Origin: an uncultured bacterium
GTDB lineage: Bacteria > Aquificota > Aquificia > Desulfurobacteriales > Desulfurobacteriaceae
NCBI GenBank assembly: GCA_964545225.1
Contig: CAZJFY010000001.1
Span: 1-49,053, forward strand
DNA length: 49,053 bases
Direction of reading: 5' to 3'
The notes under the pieces: model-generated
The model's input: only the letters and a program-made list of their open reading frames with translations
What the model was told of the DNA's origin: nothing
The model's database searches: none
Translations under genes and position numbers: made by a program
Shown here: positions 11,989 through 48,604 of the stretch, in pieces
How positions within the stretch are numbered: the first letter of the stretch is position 1
Layout: the number at the start of each line of letters is the position of its first letter

Positions 11989-12291
11989 GACTACCCCGTA
12001 TCTTGCAAGCATGGTTATCAAGTCTAGTTCGGGTGTTTTCAGCTTGTAATCTAGGTCATGTATGGGATCTCTAATCCAAATTTTTTCTTCCTTTTCTTCA
12101 ATTTTAAACCCGTTGTCCACTAAGAACTCTATTAATGCTTGTTTAAATTTAGGAGAAGGCGCAAATTGTCTGGGGGCAACTCTTATTGTTATAGACCTGC
12201 CGTAGTCATCAACCTCGCCCCAAAAAGTAAATCCTTCGATAGTTTCTTTAGTTAGTGGCGATACCTTCTTCTTGCGCCACAACCCTAACAT
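11959..12291 (-). CDS. Hypothetical protein (110 aa), reverse-oriented insert
   Basis: GGGAGGG SD before the ATG (minus strand). Own TGTTATAAT promoter at 12315-12323 (minus). Confidence 0.7.
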   Translation of the reverse strand: MLGLWRKKKVSPLTKETIEGFTFWGEVDDYGRSITIRVAPRQFAPSPKFKQALIEFLVDNGFKIEEKEEKIWIRDPIHDLDYKLKTPELDLITMLARYGVVLVPSEQDWH

Positions 12292-12314
12292 TTCTACCCT
12301 CCCTTTCGGATTAA

Positions 12315-12323
12315 ATTATAACA
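12315..12323 (-). promoter_or_regulatory. Extended -10 promoter TGTTATAAT (minus strand)
   Basis: The reverse complement of attataaca is TGTTATAAT. Lies 24 nt upstream of the minus-strand ATG at 12291, back-to-back with the plus promoter. Confidence 0.55.
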
Positions 12324-12338
12324 CACTTTGTTCTTAGG

Positions 12339-12349
12339 TTTGTTATAAT
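12339..12349 (+). promoter_or_regulatory. Extended -10 promoter TTTGTTATAAT
   Basis: The TGnTATAAT consensus is exact. Intergenic, 23 nt upstream of GTG 12372. The same 11-mer occurs at three other gene boundaries. Confidence 0.6.
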
Positions 12350-12371
12350 TTCTTTTGGACGGGAGGTAGTT

Positions 12372-12719
12372 GTGATTGAGTTAGGTTCTTGGAGCTTATG
12401 TAGAACATTTAGTTTGTTTGAGGATACTGTTAGCTTTTCTGACGACTCAGAGTTTAGGGAGATTTATGACATAGCGGCTCGCATTCCTGCCGGAACATAT
12501 CCTTTTAACACTTTGTTCACGCTAAAGAATCAAAGTTCTCAGGAAAGCTTTTTTCAGTTTAAGGATGCAAACGATGTTTTGTATGCTGACATAGTTATTG
12601 AAGCAGGGAAGACTGGCGTTATTAGTTTTCCTCCTATGAAAAGCATAAAGGTGTTGCATAAAGGTGGCGCTGGTAAAATAACATTGACGGCGTTCTTGGG
12701 CAGCTTAGAGCCTGGTTAG
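12372..12719 (+). CDS. Hypothetical small beta-rich protein (115 aa)
   Basis: GTG start 5 nt after GGGAGG (12361-12366). First gene downstream of the promoter at 12339-12349. Confidence 0.65.
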   Translation: MIELGSWSLCRTFSLFEDTVSFSDDSEFREIYDIAARIPAGTYPFNTLFTLKNQSSQESFFQFKDANDVLYADIVIEAGKTGVISFPPMKSIKVLHKGGAGKITLTAFLGSLEPG

Positions 12720-12738
12720 GTCAAGGAGGAGGCAATAA

Positions 12739-14523: not shown

Positions 14524-14526
14524 AAC

Positions 14527-27977: not shown

Positions 27978-28571
27978 ATGGGCTTGATGTATGAAACGCA
28001 AGAATATGTTCAGCGTGGGTATTCTCCTGAAAGAAGAATATACACGATGAATGCTGATGATTATCAGCCTGATATTTATTACGGTCTTTATGCCTCTGGA
28101 GGTAGCGTAAGGCGGCTTCAAGAATGGCTTAATCTTACAGTTTTTAGATTTGGTAATAAGATAAGGGTTGATGGGCTTTACGGCGAACAAACTAGAAGAG
28201 CAGTTAAAAAATTACAGAAGTTTCTAAACTTGACATTTGGAGAACATTTAAAAGTTGATGGGCTTTATGGATGTAGAACGTACTTAGCTGCTCTGAGGCA
28301 CTATAAACAAGCTGGATGGTTGCCTCCGCCCCCTCCCATTCCAAAGTGGGCAAAAGGGTGTGGGGGACTTGCAGTAGGAAAACCTCAACAACTTCCTGTT
28401 AAACCTGTTTATGTTAAGAAGGACTCTAGCGTTAAAACTGGATCTGCTAGCGTTGCTTCTGTATCTGAATCTCAGCCTCAGAGCGGCATCGACAAAAAAA
28501 CTTTATACATCGGTGGTGGAATTTTGGCAGGTTTAATAGCGTTAATGTTAATCGGGAATCCTAAGGAATAG
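27978..28571 (+). CDS. Tail-anchored peptidoglycan-binding (PG_binding_1) protein
   Basis: 'LQEWLNLTVFRFGNKIRVDGLYGEQTRRAVKKLQKFLNL..LKVDGLYGCRTYLAAL' (PG_binding_1 pattern). PPPPP linker. C-terminal TM 'KKTLYIGGGILAGLIALMLIG'. Confidence 0.75.
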   Translation: MGLMYETQEYVQRGYSPERRIYTMNADDYQPDIYYGLYASGGSVRRLQEWLNLTVFRFGNKIRVDGLYGEQTRRAVKKLQKFLNLTFGEHLKVDGLYGCRTYLAALRHYKQAGWLPPPPPIPKWAKGCGGLAVGKPQQLPVKPVYVKKDSSVKTGSASVASVSESQPQSGIDKKTLYIGGGILAGLIALMLIGNPKE

Positions 28572-28581: not shown

Positions 28582-29193
28582 ATGGCTACGGTTATGCCGT
28601 TGAGTTATGAGCGAACTTATGTAGAATTTCCATCCTTCTACGGCTATGGATATGGTGGTATTAAGAGCTTTTTCACATCCATATGGAAGGGGGCTAAAAA
28701 GGTAGTTACTTCTACTCCTGTTAAGGTAGCTGCTGGGGTTGCTCTTATAGGTGCAGCTCTTCCTGTAGTTTCTAGTGCTATTGGAGGTGCAGCGGGAGCA
28801 GCAGGGGCTGCTGCCACGGCTGGTAAGGTAGGTACTGCGCTGATTGTTGGCAAGACCATAGCTGACACCGCTATGCAGTATCAGTTGGGCAAAAAACAAG
28901 CTGAGCTTATAGAGGCGCAGAAACAAGCAATTCAGTCTGAATCTGTGTTGTATCAGCAAGCACTAGCACAACAATTACAGGCGCAACAATTACAAGCACA
29001 ACAGATGCAGGCCCAACAGGCATTAGCCCAACAACTCACCCAACAGCAAATGCCAGTTCAACAACAAGTACTAGCCCAGCAACCCATCCAACAACAAATG
29101 TATGCTCAGCCGCATAAGAAGGATAACTGGGTTAAATATGCTGCTATTGGCGGTGGTATTTTACTTTTAACGATGTTGCTACTCAACAGATAA
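28582..29193 (+). CDS. Tail-anchored membrane protein with Gly/Ala-rich hydrophobic core and Gln-rich repeat
   Basis: 'GYGYGGIKSFFTSIWKGAKKVV', Gly/Ala-rich hydrophobic stretch, (QQLQA)n tract, C-terminal TM 'VKYAAIGGGILLLTMLLLNR'. Paralog of the junction gene. Confidence 0.75.
   Translation: MATVMPLSYERTYVEFPSFYGYGYGGIKSFFTSIWKGAKKVVTSTPVKVAAGVALIGAALPVVSSAIGGAAGAAGAAATAGKVGTALIVGKTIADTAMQYQLGKKQAELIEAQKQAIQSESVLYQQALAQQLQAQQLQAQQMQAQQALAQQLTQQQMPVQQQVLAQQPIQQQMYAQPHKKDNWVKYAAIGGGILLLTMLLLNR
28954..29109 (+). repeat. Gln-rich low-complexity coding tract (QQLQA-type repeats)
   Basis: 'YQQALAQQLQAQQLQAQQMQAQQALAQQLTQQQMPVQQQVLAQQPIQQQMYAQ'. Confidence 0.8.
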
Positions 29194-30298: not shown

Positions 30299-30720
30299 TG
30301 CTGTTACCCATTCTAATTGGAGGCGTTGCTGCAGCGGGTTTAGTAGGCGGCTTTTTGTTGGGGCGCAAGCATCCATCTTTTACTCTTGAAGACTGTTTAG
30401 AGCAGTACAAAAAGATGGGGTATACTAATGAGCAGGCTTATCGGATTTGTCTGGAAAAGGCGAGAGCCAGTAGTAGTGGAGATGTTTTAGGCAGCATTCT
30501 TCCTCTTGCTGCTTTAGGGGTGGTAGGGATTTTGGCTTTTAGGTTTATGAGAGATTCAGAGCAAGGTTCTTTTAGGACGATATTGCTTACTCCGAAAATA
30601 GTAAGCTCAGGACAGAGTGTGAATAGTAAAGAACAGGAGATTAAAAATGCTAGTGGTGGAGCAGTGCCTAAGCAAGGAATGCATGAAGGATTACCCTTTA
30701 CACCACACCCAATTAGGTAG
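30298..30720 (+). CDS. Hypothetical 2-TM membrane protein (140 aa)
   Basis: TAATG coupling. TMs 'LLPILIGGVAAAGLVGGFLLG' and 'VLGSILPLAALGVVGILAFRF'. Confidence 0.6.
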   Translation: MLLPILIGGVAAAGLVGGFLLGRKHPSFTLEDCLEQYKKMGYTNEQAYRICLEKARASSSGDVLGSILPLAALGVVGILAFRFMRDSEQGSFRTILLTPKIVSSGQSVNSKEQEIKNASGGAVPKQGMHEGLPFTPHPIR

Positions 30721-31207
30721 CTTTTGGCATGATATTTTTCATCCTGTTGAAACGACAGAGTGGCTTTACTACAAGTGGAGGGATTCAAAAAAGATAGAGA
30801 GAGCATTTGTTTCTGTCTTTGGTAGGCGGCCTACCGATAAGGAAGTTGCTAACATTATAGAGGCTTACATCAGAAATAAAAGCGAGTATGGAGATGTCTT
30901 AAAAAGAAGAGGGTTTGTTCTTGAGCTACAAAAAAGTTTGAATAGGGTTTTGCCGAATAAGATAGCTGAGGATGGTATATTTTATTGGCAGACAGTTGCT
31001 GGTATCATGAAATTTCAGGAATTAAGAGGATTAAAACCGACTGGAATTCTAAACAAAGCTACTTGGCGAGAAATTATAACCCTTGATGTTGGTAGCGATG
31101 CTATTAGAAGATTTTATGAAACCAGGTTTAAAAAGATATCTGTTAAAAAGTTACTTATTGCTGGAATGATTGCTATACTTTTAATAGGTTTTTTAATGAG
31201 GAGGTGA
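30647..31207 (+). CDS. Tail-anchored peptidoglycan-binding (PG_binding_1) protein
   Basis: AGGAG lies 7 nt before the ATG. 'LQKSLNRVLPNKIAEDGIFYWQTVAGIMKFQELRGLKPTGILNKATWREI'. C-terminal TM 'KKLLIAGMIAILLIGFLMRR'. Clear paralog of 36108..36638. The start is uncertain because of a 74-nt overlap with the upstream ORF. Confidence 0.7.
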   Translation: MLVVEQCLSKECMKDYPLHHTQLGSFWHDIFHPVETTEWLYYKWRDSKKIERAFVSVFGRRPTDKEVANIIEAYIRNKSEYGDVLKRRGFVLELQKSLNRVLPNKIAEDGIFYWQTVAGIMKFQELRGLKPTGILNKATWREIITLDVGSDAIRRFYETRFKKISVKKLLIAGMIAILLIGFLMRR

Positions 31208-31210: not shown

Positions 31211-31594
31211 ATGAGCTTCTATGCCGAGATACCAGAACAAGAAGGGCTGTATGAAGAAAATTCTTTGAGTGGAGCAAATGAAGCCACGAAGAGCGAAATT
31301 ACTACTGGTGGAGAAGAAGTTGGGGAATCAAGTATTCCTGAGAAGGTAGAGAAAAAAGATATGGGGAACAAATCTGAAAACAGAAATCCCGATATGTTGC
31401 AAAGCAGAAAGAACTTGATGCCGCATAGATATGCAGCTAGAAGAAAGAAACCTGTTATCAAGGTGGTTAAAACAAAGGAAGAACATTTCGATGCCAATTC
31501 TTTTGTTGCAGGATTAATAGGTGGTATAATTATTTACTGGGGATTAACTAAAATATTTGGTAAGAAAAAACAGGGAGAACAAGGAGAGAGGTAA
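31211..31594 (+). CDS. Tail-anchored small protein (127 aa)
   Basis: GAGGAGGTG SD. Acidic/basic N-terminal part. C-terminal TM 'FVAGLIGGIIIYWGLTKIF' + KKKQ. Confidence 0.65.
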   Translation: MSFYAEIPEQEGLYEENSLSGANEATKSEITTGGEEVGESSIPEKVEKKDMGNKSENRNPDMLQSRKNLMPHRYAARRKKPVIKVVKTKEEHFDANSFVAGLIGGIIIYWGLTKIFGKKKQGEQGER

Positions 31595-36107: not shown

Positions 36108-36638
36108 ATGATTGTGGTTGAGGAAATTAAAGAACATAAAGAACAAAGACTTGATCCTGAGTATGGATTTTTTATGGAGGCTATAAGGGCCATAAAACAC
36201 TCGGCAGAAATTTCTAGGGCTTATGAAAAGTTTTTTGGAAGAAAGCCTTCCTTGTCTGAAAAGTACCATGTCGCTTCAGCATACGAAAAGAATAGATCTC
36301 TCTTTGGTATTAGATTGAAAAACAAAAAATTTGTTAAGTGGATACAGGAGGCTATTAATCAAGTTGTACCAAATAAAATTACTGTTGACGGGATTTTTGG
36401 TTACGAAACAGTTGTTGGCATCATGGCCGCCCAACGAGCTCTTGGTCTTAGGCCTACTGGAGTTCTTGACCAAGTAACATTTGCTAAGTTTAGAGACATA
36501 ATGCAGGGCAAGGCTATTGAAACAGGAGTTCCTTCGTTCTTTACACATGAAACTACCTCTTCTTTATGGCTTTGGTTTGTAGCTGGAGGTATTGCCCTTG
36601 CTGTCTTAGTTTACTTTATAATGAGGAGGGGGCAATGA
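36108..36638 (+). CDS. Tail-anchored peptidoglycan-binding (PG_binding_1) protein
   Basis: 'IQEAINQVVPNKITVDGIFGYETVVGIMAAQRALGLRPTGVLDQVTFAKF'. C-terminal TM 'LWLWFVAGGIALAVLVYFIMRR'. Confidence 0.75.
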   Translation: MIVVEEIKEHKEQRLDPEYGFFMEAIRAIKHSAEISRAYEKFFGRKPSLSEKYHVASAYEKNRSLFGIRLKNKKFVKWIQEAINQVVPNKITVDGIFGYETVVGIMAAQRALGLRPTGVLDQVTFAKFRDIMQGKAIETGVPSFFTHETTSSLWLWFVAGGIALAVLVYFIMRRGQ

Positions 36639-38303: not shown

Positions 38304-38688
38304 AGTGGAAACTATATCTCAAAAGGTTCTTTCTTTCTTTAGAGAAATTCTAAAATATAGAAAATTTTCATCTTTGGCTACCACTAGGAACGGGTTCTTC
38401 TTTTATGATTTGAATAATGAAGTAGCTGAGTATCACAAAGATCTCTTTGATTTAGCTGGAAGCTATTCGTTTATTCTCGATAGGTACCTAGAAGGATACT
38501 CAATTTTTAGGGAAGCTATCGTTGAAGGATTACAATCTGTTGTTGATGCTTACTTCGAGAAGCATCCTGAGGTTGTTCTTTATACAACTATGGATACTGT
38601 TTTGCTTGCTAACAATGGCAAAATAGAAAAGATAAATGATTTACATACTATCTTTGAGGAAGTGTTGCAATATGAAGGAAGGAAGTGA
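38293..38688 (+). CDS. Hypothetical protein (131 aa)
   Basis: AAGGAGGA SD. Confidence 0.6.
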   Translation: MMFEVETISQKVLSFFREILKYRKFSSLATTRNGFFFYDLNNEVAEYHKDLFDLAGSYSFILDRYLEGYSIFREAIVEGLQSVVDAYFEKHPEVVLYTTMDTVLLANNGKIEKINDLHTIFEEVLQYEGRK

Positions 38689-39094
38689 AAAAAAGAAGAT
38701 ATTATCTGCTTCATATATTCATCATTCGATAAAAAAGAAAATAATTGAAAGGGAGAAAAACGCGATAAAAAAGACTCCTCTTTCTGACATTTTGGACGAG
38801 TACTATTATAGACTTATGGCTACAGTAGAGGAAGGGCTAAGAAGAGGATACACTATACGCGTAAACGGTTTGTTCTCCCTCAGAATGAGAATAGAAAAGC
38901 AAGCAATTGGAGGAAAACGGAGGGTTAAGGGTTATATTAGATTTAGTGATAAGTTCAAGAGAAGCTGTCTTGATGGTTCTCTAACTAGCAATTTTGTAGT
39001 TGAGGTAGTTAATAAAAACACTGGGGAGGTTCTCTTAAATGTTGGTAGTGCAAGAGGTTCCAAAAAAGAAAAAGATAATAAAGGTTCACAATAG
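38672..39094 (+). CDS. Possible HU/IHF-like DNA-binding protein (140 aa)
   Basis: 'TVEEGLRRGYTIRVNGLFSLRMRIEKQAIGGKRRVKGYIRFSDKFKRS' loosely matches the HU pattern (L..G..V.l.GfG.F.vr.R.....k...v.F..gK.lk) with a shortened arm. ATG 38672 follows GAGGA. Confidence 0.3.
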   Translation: MKEGSEKKKILSASYIHHSIKKKIIEREKNAIKKTPLSDILDEYYYRLMATVEEGLRRGYTIRVNGLFSLRMRIEKQAIGGKRRVKGYIRFSDKFKRSCLDGSLTSNFVVEVVNKNTGEVLLNVGSARGSKKEKDNKGSQ

Positions 39095-40268: not shown

Positions 40269-41102
40269 ATGCCGGATATTGATAGCGTGGTCCAGTACTT
40301 TAGTAAAACATATTTACGGAGATTTAAAAGGCTTAAGCCGCTAACAAGAAAAACATACTTTTCGTACATTTCTTCGTTTCTTAGAAGCTTTGGCCCCAAT
40401 TTTAGTGAAGAGAACATAGAAAGATTTTTGCGTGCGCTACCTAAAACTGTTAGGAACAAAGCCTTTTTTGCACTGAAGCACTTTGCTAAGCACAGCGGGC
40501 ACGAGTTTAATCTTACCCTTCATGACTTTCCAGAAGAATTTTGGTATTCTGAGTGGGACAGAGAATACGCGGAGCGTTTTTCAAGAGACGAGATTAAAAG
40601 GTTTTGTGAAGCAATTAAGCGGGGAGAATACAAACGCAAACAGGATGCAGCTGCATTGGTATTAGCTATTGTTTGGGGATTAAGAAAAGTTGAAATGGTT
40701 AACATGATTCCAGAAAAAGATATTGATCTCGCTAATAAGGTCTTTTTAGTCAGAACAGCTAAAAAAGGAAAGAAAAGACTACACTTGATCCCCACCAAAC
40801 TTTTGCCTTACTTTGCATATCTTAAGAAAAAGAAGATCAGATTTACTTATCTTAATAATTACAACAGCTTCTTTACATTGTCCAGCATTGCAGGGGTACC
40901 TATTAAACCTAGAAGAGCTTGGCACGGCTTCCGCCGGGCACTCGTTACAGATCTGTTACAAACTGGAATTCCAGATGTAGAGATTTATGACTTTATGAGG
41001 TGGAGTAGGAGAGAAGTTATCTATAAGTATTATTCACCGGACCCTCTCGAAGTTGATAAGAAAATATTAGAAAAGCATCCTTATCTTCCTTATTTGTTAT
41101 AA
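40269..41102 (+). CDS. int: Tyrosine recombinase / integrase
   Basis: Catalytic signature: Arg I 'VWGLRKVEMVNM', Lys 'RTAKKGKKRLHLIP', 'AWHGFRRALVTDLL' (H-x-x-R), and C-terminal 'WSRREVIYKYY' (Trp/His and nucleophile Tyr). N-terminal SAM-like core-binding region. Confidence 0.85.
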   Translation: MPDIDSVVQYFSKTYLRRFKRLKPLTRKTYFSYISSFLRSFGPNFSEENIERFLRALPKTVRNKAFFALKHFAKHSGHEFNLTLHDFPEEFWYSEWDREYAERFSRDEIKRFCEAIKRGEYKRKQDAAALVLAIVWGLRKVEMVNMIPEKDIDLANKVFLVRTAKKGKKRLHLIPTKLLPYFAYLKKKKIRFTYLNNYNSFFTLSSIAGVPIKPRRAWHGFRRALVTDLLQTGIPDVEIYDFMRWSRREVIYKYYSPDPLEVDKKILEKHPYLPYLL

Positions 41103-41103
41103 T
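41093..41103 (+). promoter_or_regulatory. Extended -10 promoter TTTGTTATAAT overlapping the integrase stop codon
   Basis: Exact 11-mer. The TAA at 41100-41102 is the integrase stop. Lies 29 nt upstream of ATG 41132 of the giant gene. Confidence 0.55.
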
Positions 41104-41131
41104 TTGTTTGAAATTGAAGGAGGAGGGCAGC

Positions 41132-44100
41132 ATGCTTGCAGGAGTTGTCATGAAAGGGGGCAAGGTTTCTTCTTTTCCTGACCTATTACCATCCGGCTTT
41201 AAAACAATAATTGACAGTGTTTTTGGGACAAGGGCTTTAAGGAAGGTTTATTACTTTATCAGTCCTTTTGCTTCTACCCTAGTTGCTTCCGATGGTTCTA
41301 AAACTTATGTAGAAGTTCTTGCCCCCAATCCTAAAGATGCCCTATTTCGCTTAAATGAAGAGATGCGAGCCAATCCTTATGTTGTATGCTATGAAGTGCC
41401 TAGCGATAAGGCATCGGAATTTATTGATCTTATTAAGAAGCAAAAATCCTTGGCTATCAAGCAAGATATTGTTCAATCCATTATAGGCTTGAAGAAGTGC
41501 AAGGCAAGTGATAATCCATTTTCTATTTTTGCTTATGCCCCTAAGTTTTCAAGCCTTTACTTCTGGCAAAATATAGTAAAACACTATTTATGGGATAGAG
41601 GTTTCTTTAGTGCTAGTATTCCTGAGAATGGACACGGTAGAATAACTTTAACAGAAGATGGTATCTTTTCAGGGCTTTATAACCTTGATGAAGTTATTGT
41701 AGGAGGAGTAAGGTTTAAATTGCTTTACATGACTTTCGATTTGAAAGAGGAGGATCTGGCTAAAGTTAAGGAGAGAATTTATGATAACAAGAGAAAGGTT
41801 GATGCACTTAACAGGTCTGTTTTGAGAATAGCGAAACGCGTAGATTGTGAATATGCTATAAAAGATACGGTAATTTTTCCAGCAAGCGATAAATTGATTA
41901 GTAGAATAAGAAAAAAAATTAAATTCTCTCTGCCCATTGAGAAGTATCCTAGTGATAATGAACAGCAACTTCTTGTGACAAGACTTGCTTTAGACATAAC
42001 TGACGCAGATTCTCCTTATGAGGTTGTCATAGACAAGCTGTTAGCTGTGTCAAAGGCGGTAGTGTCTCCACAGGTGCTCTTTTATCTTATCAAGATCTTC
42101 TACATCCTTGATGGTATTATTTCTTTTGTTTCTGTTACTTCGCAGATACTGGAAGAATCTAAGGCAAACGCTTACCTCTCTTCATTTGACAATCTGTCCT
42201 CGTTTCTAAGAGAAGAGGAAAGGAAACTTGAACAAGCGAGAAGTAAACTTATTTCCATTATTTCCTCCGAGGTTGGTGTAGAACCAAAAGAGCTGAAAGG
42301 CGTGCTTAATCCATTTGCATTCAGGATTTTAACCACACAGGCAATAAACGCGATAAGGTCCCTTATTTTTGGCGTCATTGATAGTACTGATAGGCGAAAA
42401 GCTATTGGTGTTTCTAGTAAGATACAGAATACCTATACTTTCATGATTAACGCCTTCTTGCCACTACTTTCTTCTCTGATTGGTGAGAAGAAAAGTTTCA
42501 CTGAGTTTGATCCTTCTGTTTTTGAGAGTGGAGTCAAGGAACTTGTCAGCTTAGTAAAATCTGGAAGCTATAATGATAAGATAAAACACATAACAGATGC
42601 CCTGGTTGATAAATATGAAAATCTCAAAATAGTCAAGAGGGCTAAAGTTGATGAGATTATTGCCAATGCTATTTTCAGGCTAACGGGAATTGCTTCTCCA
42701 TTTGTTTCCTTTGTTGATATACCTGCGCTCTTTGAAGCGTTTAGGATAGGCGAGAGATTTAAAATCACAGACCTAAAGCGGGCAATCGGTGAGGATCTTA
42801 AAAATCTTTCATTCAACTTGGTCGTTTCTCCCCGCGCTAAGAAATACTTCAAAGACGAAAGTACGCAAGAAACTTTTGCACTGTCTTCTTATCTTGTTAA
42901 CGCCGCCTACAAAGGTGTTAGAAGAAAATATGACCTAATAGCTCGTAATGTAGTTGTTCAGGAAAGCGAAATAATCCAGGAATACAAGGAAGCTGCTACC
43001 GAAGCTGGGATAGGGGAACAAGGAAAGGATCTAGCTGAGCTTCTTGCTTTAACAGAGGAATATTCACGCGAATTTGAAGAGCTCACCGAGGATAAACTGC
43101 TTTCTGTTTATAGCATATACAAAAAAGAAGAAGTAAGTCCTGAGAGAAGATATAGATTTGCCAGATTTGGAGGCTCTCTTAAACATCTTGTTGAGTATTA
43201 CTCTCCTTCTGGAGTTGGGTTGGGTGGAGGAGTAGCAGCCAAAGCTAATCCAATACTAGATGTTTTTACCTCTCTTGAAATGCTTAAGAAGGCCATTAAG
43301 GCGGTTACTGACAGGATGTTTGGAAAAGAGGTTGTGGATGAAAGTGAAATTCCTTCTACCTTCTGGGATGAAGTTTTAAAAGAAATATCATTGATGGAGG
43401 GACAGGGTTTAATCACAAGTGATATAAGAGAATTCTTTGAGCTTTTTGTTTATAACATTATACTTTCAACCCTTGATTATGTTGCTTCCTTTTTCTATCG
43501 CGCACAAGCTGTTGAGCCCGAAAGAAAGAGAGCTGAAGTGCTGTATAGATTTGTCGAGCTTCTTCTAGTCTTCGTTGACGAGATTAAAAGATGGATAGCG
43601 GCTTCATTTATTACCGTTTCTAGTGTTAAACCTTTTACGCCGCAGTGGCTCGGCTTTTTAAAACAAAAAGCTTCTAAGCATTTACAACTGAAAAAAGACT
43701 TTGTCAAAATTTACAAATTGATAAATTCTTCAGATTTAACTTCTTTGCGAGGAAGAGTTATAAAGGTAGTGTCAGAGATACTTGACAAAGAAGTTGGTAA
43801 TGTGTTGCTGCGAACCGAACTTCAACATTTGAAGGCCATCACGATAGAGTTAATGGTTATACTTTCTTATCTCAAAGAAAAAGGAAAGACAGAATATACT
43901 AACAGCGAGATCGCGCTTACCATTGCTAAATTCCTAGCTCTTATCGCTGTACTGTCTTTAGTTAAAGCCAATCATACAAAGTCTAATTTTAAACTTGCCA
44001 AAAAAACTGACAAAGGACTGGATTACTATCAGGACGAATATAGGGTGCTTTCTGGCGAAAAGATAGAACAGCAGCTTTATGGTATCTGTAATGACATTGT

Positions 44101-47100
44101 TAAAGGAGCTAGGGTTGATGCTGTTGCTAGATATTTTGATAATGTTCTAAATCAAATCAAACAACTTGTTTCGCTTTGTGATGACGATTCCGTTTGTCTA
44201 GTTTATTCCATTCCTGAGGTAGAAGAGCCAGCATTAATTCCTTTGAAGGAATTTTTTGCTCAACAGGTTCTCGGAGCTAGGATATATGACCCCGCAGTGG
44301 TGGCCTTAAAAGAGATAATTGCCGGTAAGGTTTTAGATTTACTCCCGCTTTACAAAGCTTACTTTGGCCTTTGCGATGTTATTGAAAAAGAGCAGCTTCC
44401 TGTTTCTGAAGTAGTAGCTAAATATCCCGGTATAAGAAAACCCATCGCTGATTTTCTCCGTGAGGAAGTAGTCATTGGCGTTGAAAGAACGCTGTATCAA
44501 CTTGCTGTGTACTTCTTGGTAATAAACGCTTTGGAATCAGCATCGCGCCCGACAGCTTTGATGATACTGAAGCGTATGCTTCTTGAATATGGGGCGACTC
44601 AACCTGATGTTCTATTGAACCTTATCAATGTTAGCGGAATGACTCTAAATACTTATTTTGCGTATAAGATGCCTATTGCCGATAGTGTGGTTGTAAGAAC
44701 GAGATTTGCTAGATTGGAAGCTCTAAAAAGTATGCAACTTCCTATGCTTAAAGGATACTTAATAGGACAATGGAACTTGGTTGAAGATAGCTTACCCTAC
44801 TACGGTGTTCCAATAGCTGGAATCCCAAGCTGGGCTTATGCATTGCCCTTGATGTTGTTCCAGTGCGTTGATTTAATTCCAGAAGAGGCAGTGAAGAAAG
44901 ATGAGCTTATTTCAAAGGTTTTGGAAATAACTAAAGGGGTGCGATCCTCGGATGTTATAGGTATTGTTCGTAAATCCATTCAAGAAGCTGGAGCTGGAGC
45001 ATCTGTTGTAGCTGGCTCTACTTGTTGTAATGTCTTCCGAGCTTTAGAAGAAAACATTGCAAAGGTGAAAAATGTCAGTGAGGTGGTTTCGTTCTTTAAG
45101 ATACCTAGCACGGAGGTTGAAGGCAAGTACTCGTTTTCAATTTTCGATGACGTACCTAGTGTTTTATCTTCCGTCTCACCTACGCTTCTTGATAGAGTTG
45201 GACCCGATATTAACCTTAACAACTTTTATCACAGTGCTAGAAGCTTTGTAGTAATGCAGGCGTTACTTTCCATTTTGATTAATTTGCCTCCTGCGGACGC
45301 TGAAAGGAAGCTGAATACACTGATTAGGAACATTATGAGCGCTAAAAAATTAGGATCGTCAGCTATAGAGGCAGCTAATGCGATTTACAACAGATATTGC
45401 GATCTTTTACTTAACCAATCTGACAACAAACAAAGGCTTGAGCTAGATGCAGAAAGGCTTATTCGTCTCTCGAAGCTTGTCACAACAATTGCTAATAAGA
45501 CATCCATATACAATGTTGTGCTTTTCATTACACTTATTGATTTCCTTGCTTACATAGCCGAGGCTCCTCGATCCTTCCAAGAGTTTAATGGAAGAATTGG
45601 AGTATTGGGTCCGGTTTCTACAGCTGTTATTGAAACCAAGAAGTTTCTTGAAGCTCTCAAATTTATAGGTCTTGACAAAATTGTGACTGATCAGGCTTAC
45701 GGAATAGAAAGAATTGTCAACTTCCTGCAGGAAATAATGTCTTACTATCGTAATACCATACTGGAACACAGCAAAAGCTATTCATCTCTTGTTGCTTCCT
45801 TTGCTACATTCAGAGAGCAGGTCATCAAACCATTTGTTTTAACAACAATTGGTAAGGAAGGCCTTGAATTGATAGCTCTCTTAAAAACGCTATCTCATAT
45901 TTCTGCTTTTGATTTCGTTCTAACCAAGCAGTCACTTGCAGATGTAAGCGAAGCTAGAGATTTACTTGACACAAAAGACAAGATTATTTCTCAACATGTA
46001 TTCTATGCCACCGCGCTGGCCGAAAGGATAATTTCTGTCCACACCATTAAGCTGCTTGCTATGCAATATGAGGATACATTCACTATGCTTGCTAGACGCG
46101 GAAGAAGTGTGTTTTCTGCTGATGGGCGCAATAGCTACTTTGGTAAAATAAGAGACAAAATATTTACCTCTCTTCCTAAAGACAAAGAAATACTAAGAGG
46201 AGAGGATATAACATTTGCCTTAGCTTACCTACTCGCAGCTTTGAAATCTCATGTATTCCAGCCAATTAATGATGCCATTGAAAACATTGGAGGTTCTACA
46301 GTTCAGTCTGTTATAGACAGCTTTAAGCACGCAATCAGAAATTCTATTGAAAAAGAGATCAAGCAAGAGAAAATAAGAAGTTCAGAACTACCACAAGTTT
46401 TGCCGCTTACTTCTAAGATAGTTAAAGACGCCGTTGCGGGGTTAATGTCTTCAACCCCTGCTTCGAGAATCTATGTTCTGTCTTTACTTATTGAACTCGA
46501 AAATAAAGCGCAAGATATACTCAAACAAGTAGCTGCTAAGCTAACGCTTCTTAAAAGTAAGTACCCACAATCCATTCCTGCCCAACTTGTTCGTGAGATT
46601 GTAATAGAAACCATTGTTCAATATGTAGAAGGGCTTGTCAAGGTTTACACGGATGGAATTAAAAACGAAATGCTCTTATCTCTTGTTAGTTATTACAATG
46701 CTATTATAGACACTATGGTTAGAGAAGACGAGATAACAAAAGGACTTGTACAGCTTATTCTTGCCTATACCTTCCTATCTCATGAACCTGCTGCTCTCGA
46801 AGAAGGGATAAAATACTTAAGCAACAATCAAGTAATTTCTACCTTCAAACAGGAGTACGAAAATCTTAGAACAGAAAAAACTAAATACGCAAGCTTCACA
46901 GAAGCATTCTGCTCTACTATTGCTCGTTTCTGTGAATATGAATCTACACTTATTAAAGTGCCTCACCTAGTATTACTCACTTTGCTGATTTCCAACATTG
47001 TTCCTCGTGCATACAGAACGCAAGTTGATTTGAAAGCTGCTAGCTATGGTAACATTTGGTCTGGTGTAATCGGATCAGTGGTATCTATGGCAGTAGCTCG

Positions 47101-47275
47101 AAGAACAATTGAAAGATTTTCCTTTGTTCTCTCTAAGAAAAAAGTGCGGGAAGAAGTATTCGCGGAAGCAGAAGAACAAAGAGCTATTAACTTTATTGCT
47201 CAGCAGCTTTCCGAGTATGTTGTCCCGCAAGAACAGGTCAAGAAGATGAAACAGTTTTCTCCTTTACTGCTTTAG
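41132..47275 (+). CDS. Giant 2,047-aa predominantly helical protein of unknown function
   Basis: Uninterrupted 6.1-kb ORF. ATG 41132 follows AAGGAGGAGGGCA (the track TTG 41108 is less likely). Leu/Lys/Glu/Ile/Ala-rich with no catalytic motif recognised by eye. Confidence 0.85.
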   Translation: MLAGVVMKGGKVSSFPDLLPSGFKTIIDSVFGTRALRKVYYFISPFASTLVASDGSKTYVEVLAPNPKDALFRLNEEMRANPYVVCYEVPSDKASEFIDLIKKQKSLAIKQDIVQSIIGLKKCKASDNPFSIFAYAPKFSSLYFWQNIVKHYLWDRGFFSASIPENGHGRITLTEDGIFSGLYNLDEVIVGGVRFKLLYMTFDLKEEDLAKVKERIYDNKRKVDALNRSVLRIAKRVDCEYAIKDTVIFPASDKLISRIRKKIKFSLPIEKYPSDNEQQLLVTRLALDITDADSPYEVVIDKLLAVSKAVVSPQVLFYLIKIFYILDGIISFVSVTSQILEESKANAYLSSFDNLSSFLREEERKLEQARSKLISIISSEVGVEPKELKGVLNPFAFRILTTQAINAIRSLIFGVIDSTDRRKAIGVSSKIQNTYTFMINAFLPLLSSLIGEKKSFTEFDPSVFESGVKELVSLVKSGSYNDKIKHITDALVDKYENLKIVKRAKVDEIIANAIFRLTGIASPFVSFVDIPALFEAFRIGERFKITDLKRAIGEDLKNLSFNLVVSPRAKKYFKDESTQETFALSSYLVNAAYKGVRRKYDLIARNVVVQESEIIQEYKEAATEAGIGEQGKDLAELLALTEEYSREFEELTEDKLLSVYSIYKKEEVSPERRYRFARFGGSLKHLVEYYSPSGVGLGGGVAAKANPILDVFTSLEMLKKAIKAVTDRMFGKEVVDESEIPSTFWDEVLKEISLMEGQGLITSDIREFFELFVYNIILSTLDYVASFFYRAQAVEPERKRAEVLYRFVELLLVFVDEIKRWIAASFITVSSVKPFTPQWLGFLKQKASKHLQLKKDFVKIYKLINSSDLTSLRGRVIKVVSEILDKEVGNVLLRTELQHLKAITIELMVILSYLKEKGKTEYTNSEIALTIAKFLALIAVLSLVKANHTKSNFKLAKKTDKGLDYYQDEYRVLSGEKIEQQLYGICNDIVKGARVDAVARYFDNVLNQIKQLVSLCDDDSVCLVYSIPEVEEPALIPLKEFFAQQVLGARIYDPAVVALKEIIAGKVLDLLPLYKAYFGLCDVIEKEQLPVSEVVAKYPGIRKPIADFLREEVVIGVERTLYQLAVYFLVINALESASRPTALMILKRMLLEYGATQPDVLLNLINVSGMTLNTYFAYKMPIADSVVVRTRFARLEALKSMQLPMLKGYLIGQWNLVEDSLPYYGVPIAGIPSWAYALPLMLFQCVDLIPEEAVKKDELISKVLEITKGVRSSDVIGIVRKSIQEAGAGASVVAGSTCCNVFRALEENIAKVKNVSEVVSFFKIPSTEVEGKYSFSIFDDVPSVLSSVSPTLLDRVGPDINLNNFYHSARSFVVMQALLSILINLPPADAERKLNTLIRNIMSAKKLGSSAIEAANAIYNRYCDLLLNQSDNKQRLELDAERLIRLSKLVTTIANKTSIYNVVLFITLIDFLAYIAEAPRSFQEFNGRIGVLGPVSTAVIETKKFLEALKFIGLDKIVTDQAYGIERIVNFLQEIMSYYRNTILEHSKSYSSLVASFATFREQVIKPFVLTTIGKEGLELIALLKTLSHISAFDFVLTKQSLADVSEARDLLDTKDKIISQHVFYATALAERIISVHTIKLLAMQYEDTFTMLARRGRSVFSADGRNSYFGKIRDKIFTSLPKDKEILRGEDITFALAYLLAALKSHVFQPINDAIENIGGSTVQSVIDSFKHAIRNSIEKEIKQEKIRSSELPQVLPLTSKIVKDAVAGLMSSTPASRIYVLSLLIELENKAQDILKQVAAKLTLLKSKYPQSIPAQLVREIVIETIVQYVEGLVKVYTDGIKNEMLLSLVSYYNAIIDTMVREDEITKGLVQLILAYTFLSHEPAALEEGIKYLSNNQVISTFKQEYENLRTEKTKYASFTEAFCSTIARFCEYESTLIKVPHLVLLTLLISNIVPRAYRTQVDLKAASYGNIWSGVIGSVVSMAVARRTIERFSFVLSKKKVREEVFAEAEEQRAINFIAQQLSEYVVPQEQVKKMKQFSPLLL

Positions 47276-47332
47276 TCTTTTACTAGGTGTTAACACTGGA
47301 ATTTACTATCGTTTGTGTCTTTCTTGAGGTAG

Positions 47333-47345
47333 TTGTTTATAAAAT
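47333..47345 (+). promoter_or_regulatory. Degenerate copy of the promoter motif (TTGTTTATAAAAT)
   Basis: Intergenic. The TATAAA hexamer lies 33 nt upstream of ATG 47376, the same spacing as the exact motifs. Confidence 0.3.
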
Positions 47346-47364
47346 AAGTAGAAAAATACAATAG

Positions 47365-47382
47365 GGAGGTGCAAAATGGCAA
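47365..47382 (+). promoter_or_regulatory. Translation-initiation region GGAGGTGCAAAATGGCAA (copy 1)
   Basis: 18 nt identical to 47962-47979. Confidence 0.8.
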
Positions 47383-47921
47383 CCGCTGTAATCTATGATG
47401 GAGTGGCAGGATTTGATAATGTGGGAGAAACCGCAAAGAATGTCATTAAAGGCGGTGCAATCGGAGCCGCAACAGGACTAGCTACCATTTTCGTAACAAA
47501 CAAAATTCCAGTAATTAACAGGATGAACCCTATTATCAAATCCGTAATTGAGCTCGGTATTGTTATTGGAATCACTGCCCTTGCTAAGGACAAACTAGGA
47601 GAAGAAACAGCAACGGCAATGGGAGTTGGTGGTGCTTCAGTAGTTCTTGGTGCAGCTATAAGCAAGTTACTGGCCAAGAAGTTCCACAGCGCACCACAGG
47701 TGGTACCCGGCAAACATGGCTTTGAAGGATATGGAGATGCTGTAGCTCCTATTATTGAAGAAGTGGATGGATACGGAGACGCTGTAGCTCCTGTTGTTGA
47801 AGAAGTGGACGGATACGGAAATGAAGGTGAACTTGAAGAAGAACCGGTAGAAGTAGATGTTGTTGATGGTTATGGCGAAGTTGAAGATGAAGACGAAGGA
47901 GTCGTTGTAACTGTTGAGTGA
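47376..47921 (+). CDS. Multi-TM membrane protein with acidic repeat tail (181 aa), likely abundant
   Basis: GGGAGGTG SD. Gly/Ala/Ile-rich TM segments ('GGAIGAATGLATIFV', 'VIELGIVIGITALA', 'GVGGASVVLGAAISKLL'). C-terminal tail of 14-aa repeats 'GYGDAVAPxxEEVD'. Confidence 0.75.
   Translation: MATAVIYDGVAGFDNVGETAKNVIKGGAIGAATGLATIFVTNKIPVINRMNPIIKSVIELGIVIGITALAKDKLGEETATAMGVGGASVVLGAAISKLLAKKFHSAPQVVPGKHGFEGYGDAVAPIIEEVDGYGDAVAPVVEEVDGYGNEGELEEEPVEVDVVDGYGEVEDEDEGVVVTVE
47727..47819 (+). repeat. 42-bp tandem repeat (2 full copies plus the start of a third) encoding GYGDAVAP(I/V)(I/V)EEVD
   Basis: 47727-47768 and 47769-47810 differ only at a few third positions and at the Ile/Val codons. Confidence 0.85.
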
Positions 47922-47925
47922 GAAA

Positions 47926-47943
47926 AAGGGGCAGCAACCCCTT
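47926..47943 (+). terminator. Short hairpin AAGGGG-cagcaa-CCCCTT without a T-tract (weak attenuator/stabiliser)
   Basis: 6-bp stem lying 5 nt after the stop of 47376..47921. No U-run follows. Confidence 0.25.
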
Positions 47944-47961
47944 AACTAAAACTATTAAAAA

Positions 47962-47979
47962 GGAGGTGCAAAATGGCAA
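47962..47979 (+). promoter_or_regulatory. Translation-initiation region GGAGGTGCAAAATGGCAA (copy 2)
   Basis: 18 nt identical to 47365-47382. Confidence 0.8.
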
Positions 47980-48548
47980 AGGTAAAAGTAAGGCTTCCAA
48001 GCGGAAAGGTTAAAGAAGTTCAAATCTCAGATCTCAGACCTTACTCTTGGTATGATGCTATTCAAATCAAAGCAGACTTGAAGTCAAACAACTATGTACT
48101 CTTTAAGAAGACCGGTAGCCCGCTCATTCTTTCTAACATGAAGACCCCTTCTTCTATTCCAAACGGCTTCCAGTTTGAATTACAAGCTGTTAGGATTTCC
48201 TATGTCGGAGTTGCCAGCGCTGATGACCTCAACAAACTCATTCATAATGCTGTCTTGATTTACAGAAAGGGTGGTTCTGATGAAATCTTTGTCAAGCCGT
48301 TGTGGGAATTCACAACCGGTGGTGGTGTTTGGACACCAAAAGCCGATGTTGATGTACCCTCTTTCGGTTTGCCAACGGTAACCGCAGTAAGCAAGCTTCC
48401 GTTCTCTATCTTCATCGATGGTGGAGATGTTATGGAATGGATTATAGCTGTTGACTTCCAGTTCCCGCCAACGGATGGCAAGTATCTCAGCCAAGACATA
48501 ACGCTTCAAGTTGTTCTTGATGGTGTTCTAAAGAAACCTGCTCTTTAA
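47973..48548 (+). CDS. Beta-rich 191-aa protein, candidate major virion protein
   Basis: Perfect AGGAGGTG SD with the same 18-nt initiation region as the preceding gene. Immediately followed by the strongest intrinsic terminator in the window. Confidence 0.7.
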   Translation: MAKVKVRLPSGKVKEVQISDLRPYSWYDAIQIKADLKSNNYVLFKKTGSPLILSNMKTPSSIPNGFQFELQAVRISYVGVASADDLNKLIHNAVLIYRKGGSDEIFVKPLWEFTTGGGVWTPKADVDVPSFGLPTVTAVSKLPFSIFIDGGDVMEWIIAVDFQFPPTDGKYLSQDITLQVVLDGVLKKPAL

Positions 48549-48567: not shown

Positions 48568-48604
48568 AGCCCGCTCTCCACTCACTATGGAGGGCGGGCT
48601 TTTT
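48568..48604 (+). terminator. Rho-independent terminator
   Basis: 12-bp GC-rich stem AGCCCGCTCTCC / GGAGGGCGGGCT (one G-U pair), 9-nt loop, then a TTTTT run. Begins 20 nt after the stop of 47973..48548. Confidence 0.85.

What the first reader, a model, noticed from the sequence alone, without database searches (positions are those of the whole stretch)
41132..47275. 2,047-aa helical giant protein with its own promoter, about one eighth of the genome
Seen: a single uninterrupted 6.1-kb ORF follows the promoter that overlaps the integrase stop. Composition is dominated by L/K/E/I/A/S/V. I see no P-loop, no polymerase-type D-x-D/NADFDGD motif, no lytic domain and no obvious internal repeats. It is directly followed by the two probably most highly expressed genes.

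Inference, candidate roles:
- an internal scaffold or genome-condensing protein
- an injected protein
- a very divergent tape-measure or virion RNA polymerase

None of these is supported by motifs.
Basis: inference. Interest (0 to 1): 0.7.

Follow-up and report, generated by a model that had tools for sequence, protein, structure and literature searches.

The report
Conserved giant helical virus protein
A real 2,047-residue, mostly helical protein gene of unknown family sits in a roughly 84-kb virus from deep-sea vents; related viruses keep a gene of the same size in the same place, and it is most likely a virion-internal DNA-delivery protein, though that is inferred and not shown.

Summary
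The ORF is real: window 41132-47275, + strand, 2,047 aa, 230 kDa. It has a strong ribosome-binding site. Its extended -10 promoter, TTTGTTATAAT, overlaps the recombinase stop codon and recurs five times in the window against 0.14 expected by chance.

- The window is a partial contig. The genome is about 84 kb, so the gene is about 7% of it, not one eighth.
- The protein is not an orphan. Walking out from the primase gene found three related vent viruses (contigs of 78-100 kb) with a 2,150-2,208-aa ORF at the same position. Two of these ORFs are 29-30% identical to ours over about 1,500 aa.

No known family matches in Pfam, PHROGs, NCBIfam, PADLOC, PDB, or profile comparison with tape-measure and ejection proteins. 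Structure prediction failed (pLDDT 35).

The protein is soluble, about two-thirds helical, near neutral, repeat-free and free of catalytic motifs. It evolves much faster than its neighbours while keeping its size, its position and a C-terminal hydrophobic helix pair.

Best reading, confidence 0.35: a virion-internal ejection-type protein. A tape measure protein, a non-virion role and a role in a non-tailed membrane virion remain open. RNA polymerase and DNA-condensing roles are disfavoured.

The parts
41093..41103 (+). Extended -10 promoter TTTGTTATAAT of the giant gene. Its TATAAT (41098-41103) overlaps the recombinase stop codon at 41100-41102.
   Evidence: One of 5 exact TTTGYTATAAT sites in the window, all on the + strand and all just upstream of gene starts; 0.14 expected by chance. 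Sequence read.
41117..41127 (+). Shine-Dalgarno region AAGGAGGAGGG, 4-5 nt before ATG 41132.
   Evidence: Read directly from the sequence.
41132..47275 (+). Giant gene: 2,047 aa, 230 kDa, pI 8.55.
   Evidence: ORF and translation. Identical protein on at least 5 contigs from several vent metagenomes. Orthologues 29-30% identical over aa 558-2044 in two related viruses.
41132..41731 (+). N-terminal region of about 200 aa with mixed alpha/beta prediction; the only part that is not mainly helical.
   Evidence: DSSP of the AF2 model, which is low confidence. Conservation could not be assessed because the relatives' N-termini lie outside the fetched loci.
43079..43678 (+). Best-conserved block 1 (aa 650-849), with motifs ERRYRF, PILDxFT, FFExFVYNIIL and KPFTPxW.
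   Evidence: Three-way identity 40-46% per 50-aa bin against 26% overall.
44429..44881 (+). Best-conserved block 2 (aa 1100-1250), with motifs NALESAxRPTALxILK, NTYFA and PYYxVPIxGxPSWA.
   Evidence: Three-way identity 44-48% in bins 1100-1149 and 1200-1249.
46946..47101 (+). C-terminal hydrophobic helix pair (aa 1939-1990), followed by a charged helical tail.
   Evidence: This is the only hydrophobic segment kept above KD 1.6 in ours, V2 and V3 (1.82, 1.94, 1.67), about 110 aa from the C-terminus. V4 has an analogous arrangement despite no detectable sequence similarity.
47287..47296 (.). Palindrome GTGTTAACAC just after the giant's stop codon.
   Evidence: The homologous position in V2 and V3 carries CCCTTGTTAACAAGGG. 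V2 also has a terminator-like hairpin with a T-run after its giant gene. Its role as terminator or operator is not tested.
47338..47351 (+). Conserved promoter-like element TATAAA-N-ATAG upstream of the 181-aa gene.
   Evidence: Conserved together with the SD and start context in all four viruses (alignment A4). It is unique in the window.
47376..47921 (+). 181-aa neighbour: three glycine-rich hydrophobic helices and an acidic C-terminal tail with DGYGDAVAPVVEEV repeats.
   Evidence: 74-75% identical in V2 and V3 and 57% in V4, far above the giant. No family hit.
47973..48548 (+). 191-aa neighbour: beta-rich, possibly a jelly-roll.
   Evidence: 76% identical in V2 and V3 and 58% in V4. AF2 pLDDT 42. 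Foldseek top hits are all jelly-roll proteins, but with E above 1e-3 and TM-scores of 0.2-0.3, so this is a hint only.
48568..48600 (+). Intrinsic terminator (13-bp stem with 9 GC pairs, then a T-run) that closes the giant/181/191 block.
   Evidence: V2 has an equivalent 14-bp-stem terminator after its 191-aa gene.

Best explanation
The gene encodes a large, soluble, mostly alpha-helical structural protein. It is packaged inside the virion and released at infection to help carry the DNA across the bacterial envelope. In other words, it works like the internal 'ejection' proteins of short-tailed phages (T7 gp15/gp16, P22 gp20/gp16).

Proposed mechanism:
1. The gene is transcribed from its own extended -10 promoter within the rightward block that also holds the fibre-like, peptidoglycan-binding and lytic transglycosylase genes.
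2. A small number of copies are packaged.
3. On adsorption the protein exits partly unfolded and refolds.
4. It inserts its conserved C-terminal hydrophobic helix pair into the cytoplasmic membrane to build or extend the DNA conduit.

What is shown: the gene, its promoter, its helical and soluble character, its conservation of size and position, its fast divergence, and the conserved C-terminal hydrophobic helices.

What is inferred: packaging, ejection and membrane insertion.
For: 1. Conserved size and position with fast sequence divergence. Related viruses found through the primase gene carry ORFs of 2,166, 2,150 and 2,208 aa at the same position, each followed by homologues of the 181-aa and 191-aa genes, then UvrD and the primase.
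2. Identity of ours to V2/V3 by gene: giant 29-30%; primase 39-41%; UvrD 52-53%; SNF2 54%; the two small neighbours 74-76%. In the most distant relative the giant is undetectable by BLAST or hhalign, yet it keeps length, composition and C-terminal architecture.
3. This is the stated signature of ejection proteins. [quoted passage not shown]
4. The protein is about 66% helical, with helices of 4-36 residues separated by loops. Pro-, Gly- and aromatic-rich motifs are conserved. Most hydrophobic helices are not conserved as membrane-grade in the orthologues. Together this points to a folded soluble helical protein, as described for T7 gp16.
5. One hydrophobic helix about 110 aa from the C-terminus, plus a second small-residue helix, is conserved in ours, V2 and V3, with an analogue in V4. 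Putative C-terminal transmembrane helices are reported in all gp16-like proteins.
6. The gene lies in the rightward block with fibre-like, SLT, peptidoglycan-binding and transglutaminase-core genes. The replication and early-type genes lie on the other strand.
7. No enzymatic motif or domain was found in any library.
Against: - No sequence, profile or fold link to any ejection protein. hhalign probability against T7 gp14/15/16 and P22 gp16/20 is below 1%.
- The canonical three-gene order (gp14-like, gp15-like, gp16-like, after the tail genes and before the fibre gene) is not seen. Here the upstream neighbour is a tyrosine recombinase.
- 2,047 aa exceeds the 609-1,337 aa range listed for gp16-like proteins.
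- The virion type is unknown. No capsid, portal, terminase, tube or sheath was recognised in the 76.4 kb examined, so a short tail is not established.
- Hydrophobic helices near a C-terminus are weak evidence. Lambda gpH, a tape measure protein, has one too.
- Late timing is inferred from gene orientation only. The same promoter motif also occurs in front of genes in the other arm of the genome.
Confidence: 0.35

Rival explanations
1. Tape measure protein of a long-tailed phage. The helical protein fills the tail tube lumen, sets tail length (about 2,047 aa x 0.15 nm = about 300 nm), and is expelled first at infection to open the membrane.
For: - It is the only large helical protein in the 76.4 kb of genome examined, so it is the only TMP candidate if the virus has a long tail.
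- Length is conserved within about 4% across four viruses while sequence diverges fast.
- It has hydrophobic C-terminal helices, as lambda gpH does.
- The adjacent 191-aa beta-rich protein is highly conserved and probably abundant, and is in the size range of tail tube proteins. The tube-protein size range is from general knowledge, not tested here.
- Two proteins show weak hits to the tail-collar fibre N-terminal domain (PF12571 E 3e-4; phrog_4618 E 6e-5).
Against: - Synteny is wrong. There is no tube, chaperone pair or frameshift upstream. The overlapping small ORFs upstream are in +1, not -1, frame relation, and the immediate neighbour is a recombinase. No distal tail or hub genes lie downstream, and the fibre-like genes lie 23-39 kb upstream.
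- No hit to any TMP model in Pfam or PHROGs. hhalign probability against lambda H, SPP1 gp18 and Thermus phage P23-45 gp96 is below 1%.
- Predicted helices are short (36 residues at most), with conserved Pro/Gly/aromatic loops. There are no repeats or periodic units.
- Composition is richer in aliphatic and aromatic residues and poorer in Ala/Gly than three reference TMPs, but this comparison is confounded by genome base composition.
Confidence: 0.2
2. A non-virion intracellular protein. Examples: a scaffold for replication or assembly, a host-takeover factor, or a prophage-expressed exclusion or defence protein that sits next to the recombinase under its own constitutive-type promoter.
For: - It lies immediately downstream of a tyrosine recombinase and has its own sigma-70-type extended -10 promoter that needs no phage factor.
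- Fast divergence is also typical of host-interaction and defence genes.
- In V2 the giant gene is insulated by its own terminator from the 172/191-aa pair.
Against: - No hit to any of 5,027 defence-system models.
- There is no NTPase, nuclease or other effector motif.
- The gene is conserved in position and size in all four related viruses, next to their two most conserved genes, which is unlike an accessory 'moron'.
- It lies in the structural-type arm of the genome, not among the replication genes.
Confidence: 0.2
3. An organising protein (matrix-, tegument- or cement-like) of a non-tailed, membrane-containing virion whose shell is built from the 191-aa jelly-roll-like protein and whose membrane carries the 181-aa protein.
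For: - No HK97-type capsid, portal or terminase was recognised in 91% of the genome. The only P-loop-type motifs found in 76.4 kb are in the UvrD and SNF2 helicases.
- The late region holds many membrane-anchored proteins, several anchored at the extreme C-terminus, and three carry PG_binding_1.
- The 181/191-aa pair is the most conserved and probably the most expressed in the region.
- Foldseek top hits of the 191-aa model are all jelly-roll proteins, including capsid proteins and Thermus phage P23-77 VP16.
Against: - The 191-aa model has pLDDT 42, all Foldseek E-values are above 1e-3 and TM-scores are 0.2-0.3, so the fold call is only a hint.
- Fibre-like paralogues and weak tail-collar fibre hits point to a tailed phage.
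- The last 8 kb was not seen and could hold the head genes.
- No packaging ATPase of any type was found.
- There is no direct evidence linking the giant to capsid or membrane.
Confidence: 0.1
4. A virion-packaged RNA polymerase of the N4 or crAss type that is too divergent to recognise.
For: Size class only (about 2,000 aa), plus the absence of any other assignment.
Against: - No D.D.D anywhere in 2,047 residues, and only two DxD occurrences.
- The protein is essentially all-alpha after residue 200, so there is no room for double-psi beta-barrels or a palm domain.
- No profile or PDB hit.
- The virus encodes a sigma-70 region 2 protein (PF04542, E 1.5e-8, above the curated cutoff) and uses sigma-70-type extended -10 promoters, so it evidently uses the host core polymerase.
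Confidence: 0.02

Closest known systems
Podovirus internal virion / ejection proteins (T7 gp15 747 aa and gp16 1,318 aa; P22 gp20 and gp16)
   Same: - Large, largely alpha-helical and soluble despite hydrophobic helices.
- No enzymatic core required.
- Putative membrane helices towards the C-terminus.
- Orthologues are recognisable by size and synteny while sequence decays quickly (PMC8954989; this locus).
- The combined length of T7 gp15 and gp16 (2,065 aa) is close to 2,047 aa. This may be coincidence.
   Different: - No sequence or profile similarity.
- It is a single gene rather than a gp14/15/16 triad.
- The gene neighbourhood differs: recombinase upstream, a membrane-like protein and a beta-rich protein downstream.
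- It is larger than any listed gp16-like protein.
- The lytic transglycosylase is a separate 216-aa protein at window 426-1076.
- Virion location is untested.
Tape measure proteins (lambda gpH 853 aa, SPP1 gp18 1,032 aa, Thermus phage P23-45 gp96 5,002 aa)
   Same: - Giant and helical, with conserved length and fast-evolving sequence.
- Hydrophobic segment near the C-terminus.
- Expelled at infection.
- P23-45 shows that thermophilic phages of about 84 kb can carry very large TMPs.
   Different: - No tube, chaperone or frameshift genes upstream and no distal-tail genes downstream.
- No profile similarity.
- Short helices with conserved loops and no repeat units.
N4-like and crAss-like virion RNA polymerases
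   Same: Giant virion-type ORF of 2,000 aa or more with little sequence conservation.
   Different: No catalytic Asp motif, an all-alpha prediction, and the virus has its own sigma factor.

Membership tests
Tape measure protein | Gene sits after the tail tube gene and a chaperone pair with a programmed -1 frameshift, and before the distal tail / baseplate hub genes. | tested here: not met
   Upstream lie small unknown ORFs in +1 overlap, then a 160-aa ORF and a tyrosine recombinase. Downstream lie the 181-aa membrane-like and 191-aa beta-rich genes. None has a tail-family hit.
Tape measure protein | Sequence or profile similarity to known TMP families. | tested here: not met
   Pfam, PHROGs and NCBIfam give no hit. 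hhalign of alignment A1 against lambda H, SPP1 gp18 and P23-45 gp96 gives probability 0.5% or less.
Tape measure protein | Predominantly alpha-helical, with length proportional to tail length. | tested here: inconclusive
   Helical character is supported and length is conserved at 2,047-2,208 aa. Tail length is unknown, and the helices are short (36 residues at most) in a low-confidence model.
Podovirus ejection proteins (gp14/gp15/gp16-like) | Largely alpha-helical, soluble, large internal protein. | tested here: met
   About 66% helix in the AF2 model, which is low confidence. Most hydrophobic helices are not conserved as membrane-grade in the orthologues. pI is 8.55.
Podovirus ejection proteins (gp14/gp15/gp16-like) | Rapid sequence divergence with conserved size and synteny. 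| tested here: met
   The giant is 29-30% identical against 52-76% for neighbouring genes, and is undetectable in V4 at the same position with a similar size.
Podovirus ejection proteins (gp14/gp15/gp16-like) | Putative transmembrane helices near the C-terminus of the gp16-like protein. | tested here: inconclusive
   A conserved hydrophobic helix (KD 1.67-1.94) lies about 110 aa from the C-terminus in ours, V2 and V3, with a second helix and an analogue in V4. The feature is not specific, because lambda gpH has one too.
Podovirus ejection proteins (gp14/gp15/gp16-like) | Three consecutive genes located after the tail/portal genes in a short-tailed virion. | tested here: not met
   There is a single giant gene. 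The following 181-aa hydrophobic protein could stand in for a gp14-like pore former, but there is no evidence for that. The virion type is unknown.
Podovirus ejection proteins (gp14/gp15/gp16-like) | Present inside the capsid and ejected into the host. | not testable with these tools
   This needs virion proteomics or cryo-EM.
Virion RNA polymerase (N4-like / crAss-like) | Catalytic aspartate motif (DxDGD-type in two-barrel enzymes) and beta-barrel or palm domains. | tested here: not met
   No D.D.D in the whole protein. The prediction is all-alpha after residue 200. There are no profile or PDB hits.
Known anti-phage defence proteins | Match to a defence-system model. | tested here: not met
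   PADLOC gives 0 families at E up to 0.1 for the giant and seven neighbours.

The most novel reading that the evidence does not exclude
The giant protein is not a tape-measure or ejection protein of a tailed phage. Instead it is the organising (matrix- or tegument-like) component of a previously unrecognised, membrane-containing virion type. That virion would belong to a new family of 78-100-kb viruses of thermophilic vent bacteria, with a shell built from the 191-aa jelly-roll-like protein and a membrane carrying the 181-aa protein and the many tail-anchored peptidoglycan-binding proteins.
Probability: 0.08. Interest if true: 0.85.

Novelty: new variant of a known kind. Interest (0 to 1): 0.45.

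Why it matters
- The gene defines a new protein family of about 230 kDa, with no link to any catalogued family. It is conserved in a group of large, almost entirely unannotated viruses from high-temperature hydrothermal vents.
- If it is a genome-delivery protein, it would be the largest single-chain example without an enzymatic domain. It would also show how DNA is carried across the envelope of a thermophilic bacterium.
- The family gives a practical handle on this virus group. The giant gene plus the two highly conserved small genes form a recognisable three-gene signature.
- The session also showed a methodological point. 'No homologue in billions of proteins' was false here: orthologues were found only by walking out from a conserved neighbouring gene.

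Tried and rejected
**Searches with the giant protein**
- Pfam, PHROGs, NCBIfam, PADLOC and PDB sequence searches with the single protein, and with the three-sequence profile where allowed, found nothing.
- tblastn against 50,697 phage records and 72,556 plasmids found nothing.
- The word-indexed search of 5.8 billion protein clusters, with the full protein and with profile A1, returned only the protein itself.
- The exhaustive HMMER search of 1.84 billion representatives with aa 1-1200 returned only a 98%-identical fragment of the same protein.
- These negatives are unreliable. The V2 and V3 orthologues exist as called genes yet were never returned.
- IMG/VR and GTDB scans with the protein and with alignments A1 and A2 found no relatives.
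- The single metagenome scan, spent on a methyltransferase, brought in 80 unrelated loci that share only methyltransferases.

**Structure**
- AF2 on aa 1-1100 gave pLDDT 35, and its Foldseek matches are meaningless.
- The second job went to the 191-aa neighbour and gave pLDDT 42.

**Other tests**
- A composition comparison with three TMPs and four ejection proteins did not discriminate, because it is confounded by genome base composition.
- I guessed that the 152-aa ORF at 38636-39094 is HU/IHF-like. Pfam did not support this, and I dropped it.
- A second shared promoter motif for the 181/191-aa genes was sought elsewhere in the window and not found.
- A literature search found no description of this virus group. 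A 2026 preprint on Thermococcales viruses from the same kind of samples concerns archaeal viruses, whereas this virus has bacterial hallmarks: SLT, PG_binding_1 and sigma-70 region 2.

Full report
**1. The observation**

The window carries one uninterrupted ORF at 41108(TTG)/41132(ATG)..47275 on the + strand. From the ATG it is 2,047 aa. At this base composition a stop codon is expected in 6.8% of codons, so the chance of 2,047 open codons is about 10^-62.

ATG 41132 is the likely start. AAGGAGGAGGG lies at 41117-41127, whereas the TTG at 41108 comes only 5 nt after the -10 element.

- TTTGTTATAAT (a TGnTATAAT extended -10) lies at 41093-41103. Its TATAAT overlaps the recombinase stop codon at 41100-41102.
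- TTTGYTATAAT occurs five times in the window, always on the + strand and always 30-41 nt upstream of a start codon: at 12339, 19731, 36057, 41093 and 48698.
- Only 0.14 occurrences are expected by chance, and none of 100 shuffles reached five.

The other stated features hold.
- Composition matches.
- There is no Walker A motif and no D.D.D motif.
- There are no internal repeats by self-BLAST or chunk-wise phmmer.

**2. Corrections to the framing**

The window is the whole of metagenome contig FORT21-1 scaffold_83, from a hydrothermal vent sample. The identical protein occurs on contigs of 64.9, 84.2 and 84.6 kb. Three assemblies end at exactly window position 1.

I walked the 64.9-kb contig out to genome coordinate 76.4 kb. 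The far arm, mostly on the opposite strand, holds these genes:
- a UvrD-type helicase;
- a DnaG-zinc-ribbon primase;
- two SNF2 helicases;
- several DNA methyltransferases, one with an intein;
- a STIV-B116-like protein;
- an NrdD fragment;
- VRR-NUC and SNase nucleases;
- a sigma-70 region 2 protein (E 1.5e-8).

The genome is therefore about 84 kb and the giant gene is about 7% of it. The last 8 kb or so could not be reached.

The host is bacterial. The evidence is an SLT domain (E 5e-21), three PG_binding_1 proteins and the sigma factor.

**3. It is not an orphan**

Every direct search for relatives of the protein returned only itself.

Searching with the neighbouring primase instead gave three relatives, at 40%, 41% and 31% identity, on contigs of 78.2, 77.9 and 99.9 kb. 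I call these viruses V2, V3 and V4. Their loci show the same gene order:
- SNF2 helicase, then primase, then UvrD;
- one or more variable genes;
- a 191-195-aa gene;
- a 161-173-aa gene;
- an extra 152-aa gene in the most distant relative only;
- an ORF of 2,166, 2,150 or 2,208 aa.

The available C-terminal 1,500-1,600 residues of the V2 and V3 giants align to residues 558-2044 of ours at 29-30% identity with E = 0. V2 and V3 are 74% identical to each other.

The V4 giant (C-terminal 1,054 aa available) shows no detectable similarity by BLAST or hhalign. It does have almost the same composition and the same C-terminal layout.

These orthologues are called genes in the same collection, yet they were not returned even by a profile that contained them.

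**4. What the protein looks like**

- **Secondary structure.** A single-sequence AF2 model of residues 1-1100 is of low confidence (pLDDT 35), so only its secondary structure is used. It has 66% helix and 2.5% strand, helices of 4-36 residues, and a mixed alpha/beta region in the first 200 residues or so.
- **C-terminal half.** Residues 1101-2047 have the same alpha-type amphipathic periodicity as the helical part. The fraction of windows favouring alpha is 0.68 against 0.65, compared with 0.38-0.44 in beta-rich controls from the same genome.
- **Charge.** The protein is 230 kDa, pI 8.55, net charge +13, with no basic segment.
- **Conservation.** It is patchy. Blocks at aa 650-849, 1100-1149 and 1200-1249 reach 40-48% three-way identity against 26% overall. 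They carry Pro-, Gly- and aromatic-rich motifs such as RPTALxILK, NTYFA, PYYxVPIxGxPSWA and KPFTPxW. Indels are short (4-21 aa). This pattern suggests a folded multi-helical protein rather than a featureless coiled coil.
- **Hydrophobic helices.** Of the six hydrophobic windows in our protein, only the one about 110 aa from the C-terminus stays strongly hydrophobic in V2 and V3. It is followed by a second small-residue helix and a charged helical tail, and V4 has the same arrangement.

**5. Neighbourhood**

The two following genes are the most conserved in the region. They are 74-76% identical in V2 and V3 and 56-58% in V4. For comparison, the helicases are 52-54%, the primase 39-41% and the giant 29-30%.

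Their expression signals:
- They share an identical strong initiation context.
- They share a promoter-like element, TATAAA-N-ATAG, that is conserved in all four viruses.
- They end at a strong terminator (V2 equivalent).
- A TGTTAACA-centred palindrome follows the giant's stop codon in ours, V2 and V3. V2 also has a terminator there.

What the two proteins look like:
- The 181-aa protein has three glycine-rich hydrophobic helices and an acidic tail with DGYGDAVAPVVEEV repeats.
- The 191-aa protein is beta-rich. Its low-confidence model (pLDDT 42) draws only jelly-roll proteins as top Foldseek hits, but with E above 1e-3 and TM-scores of 0.2-0.3, so this is a hint only.

The gene upstream of the giant is a 277-aa tyrosine recombinase.

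The rest of the rightward arm holds:
- at least five of eight 525-621-aa fibre-like proteins that share a C-terminal domain;
- weak tail-collar fibre hits;
- an SLT protein;
- a transglutaminase-core protein;
- many membrane-anchored proteins.

No capsid, portal, terminase, tube or sheath family hits any called gene in the 76.4 kb examined. The only P-loop-type motifs found belong to the UvrD and SNF2 helicases.

**6. Interpretation**

Among phage proteins of this size, helical ones without enzyme domains are mainly tape measure proteins or internal ejection proteins. This statement rests on general knowledge.

The features shown here are those a review lists for ejection proteins (PMC8954989):
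- helical and soluble;
- fast divergence with conserved size and synteny;
- a conserved C-terminal hydrophobic helix pair;
- location in the structural-type arm.

The review describes these proteins as largely alpha-helical, matched by size and synteny rather than sequence, and carrying C-terminal putative transmembrane helices. I therefore take a virion-internal genome-delivery protein of the ejection type as the best explanation, with confidence 0.35.

The rivals:
- **Tape measure protein (0.2).** It is the only candidate if the tail is long. Against it stand the synteny, the absence of any TMP profile signal, and the short-helix, conserved-loop pattern.
- **Non-virion role (0.2).** The recombinase neighbour and the host-type promoter fit this. 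The conserved position next to the two most conserved genes, and the lack of any defence or effector signature, do not.
- **Organiser of a non-tailed membrane-containing virion (0.1).** This rests on missing hallmark genes, many membrane proteins and a weak jelly-roll hint.
- **Virion RNA polymerase (0.02) and DNA condensation.** Both are disfavoured.

The confidences sum to less than 1. The remainder is for roles not considered here.

**7. Known or new**

The protein cannot be filed in any known family. Every sequence or profile test was negative, and for both the TMP and the ejection-protein class the synteny criterion was tested and not met.

What it most likely works like is a known kind of protein, so I rate it a new variant of a known kind. 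About 8% is reserved for a categorically new virion component.

Interest is moderate. Giant uncharacterised phage proteins are not rare. This one, however, is conserved, defines a signature for a dark group of thermophilic vent viruses, and is directly testable by virion proteomics and by alignment-based structure prediction.

Noticed in passing
window 12339, 19731, 36057, 41093, 48698 (+ strand); also L090 851-860 and 4469-4478: The extended -10 promoter motif TTTG(T/C)TATAAT recurs upstream of gene starts: 5 exact sites in the window against 0.14 expected. It probably marks the transcription units of this virus. No exact copy was found in the fetched parts of the relatives.
   Followed up: partly
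window 47376-48548 and L092 16173-17325, L095 16359-17512, L098 17355-18485: The 181-aa protein (glycine-rich hydrophobic helices plus acidic DGYGDAVAPVVEEV repeats) and the 191-aa beta-rich protein are by far the most conserved genes of the region (74-76% and 56-58% identity). They share a conserved promoter-like element and identical start contexts. They are probably abundant structural proteins of unknown type. The 191-aa model hints at a jelly-roll fold.
   Followed up: partly
whole genome, coordinates 1-76.4 kb (window plus L001, L088, L090): No capsid, portal, terminase, tail tube or sheath family hits any called gene in 91% of an 84-kb virus genome. The only P-loop-type motifs found are in the UvrD and SNF2 helicases. 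Either the head genes are in the unseen 8 kb or the virion proteins are of unrecognised types.
   Followed up: partly
window 193-423, 27978-28571, 28582-29193, 30647-31207, 31211-31594, 36108-36638; L001 17608-19346: The late region holds an unusually large number of small proteins with a membrane anchor at the extreme C-terminus. Three of them carry a PG_binding_1 domain just before the anchor, and two (321 and 258 aa) carry PHKPS-type proline-rich repeats.
   Followed up: partly
window 2081-16263 and 25020-26597: The window holds eight proteins of 525-621 aa. At least five of them (at 2081, 3828, 6747, 8375 and 25020) share a C-terminal domain of about 90-120 aa, which in four of them matches PHROG families of unknown function (20698, 22549, 38139). 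They look like a large set of alternative fibre or receptor-binding proteins.
   Followed up: partly
window position 1: Contigs from three assemblies (49.1, 19.8 and 84.2 kb) all end at exactly this base, inside an open reading frame. This suggests a physical genome end or a terminal repeat. Contigs of the relative V3 break at a different place, which would fit circular permutation there.
   Followed up: no
L090 4470-6344 (- strand of the locus); genome about 70.1-72.0 kb: A 624-aa N6/N4 DNA methyltransferase appears to be interrupted by an intein. The Intein_splicing match covers residues 170-433 at E 8e-5, which is below the Pfam cutoff.
   Followed up: no
L090 9108-9968 and 10001-10519: The virus encodes a 286-aa sigma-70 region 2 protein next to a 172-aa fragment-sized NrdD homologue. 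A STIV-B116-like protein, typical of archaeal viruses, lies nearby at L090 18583-18915.
   Followed up: no
protein searches: The orthologous giants of V2 and V3 are called genes on ENA, JGI and Logan contigs. They were never returned by either protein database search, not even by a profile built from them. Negative homologue searches for this family are therefore not evidence of absence.
   Followed up: yes
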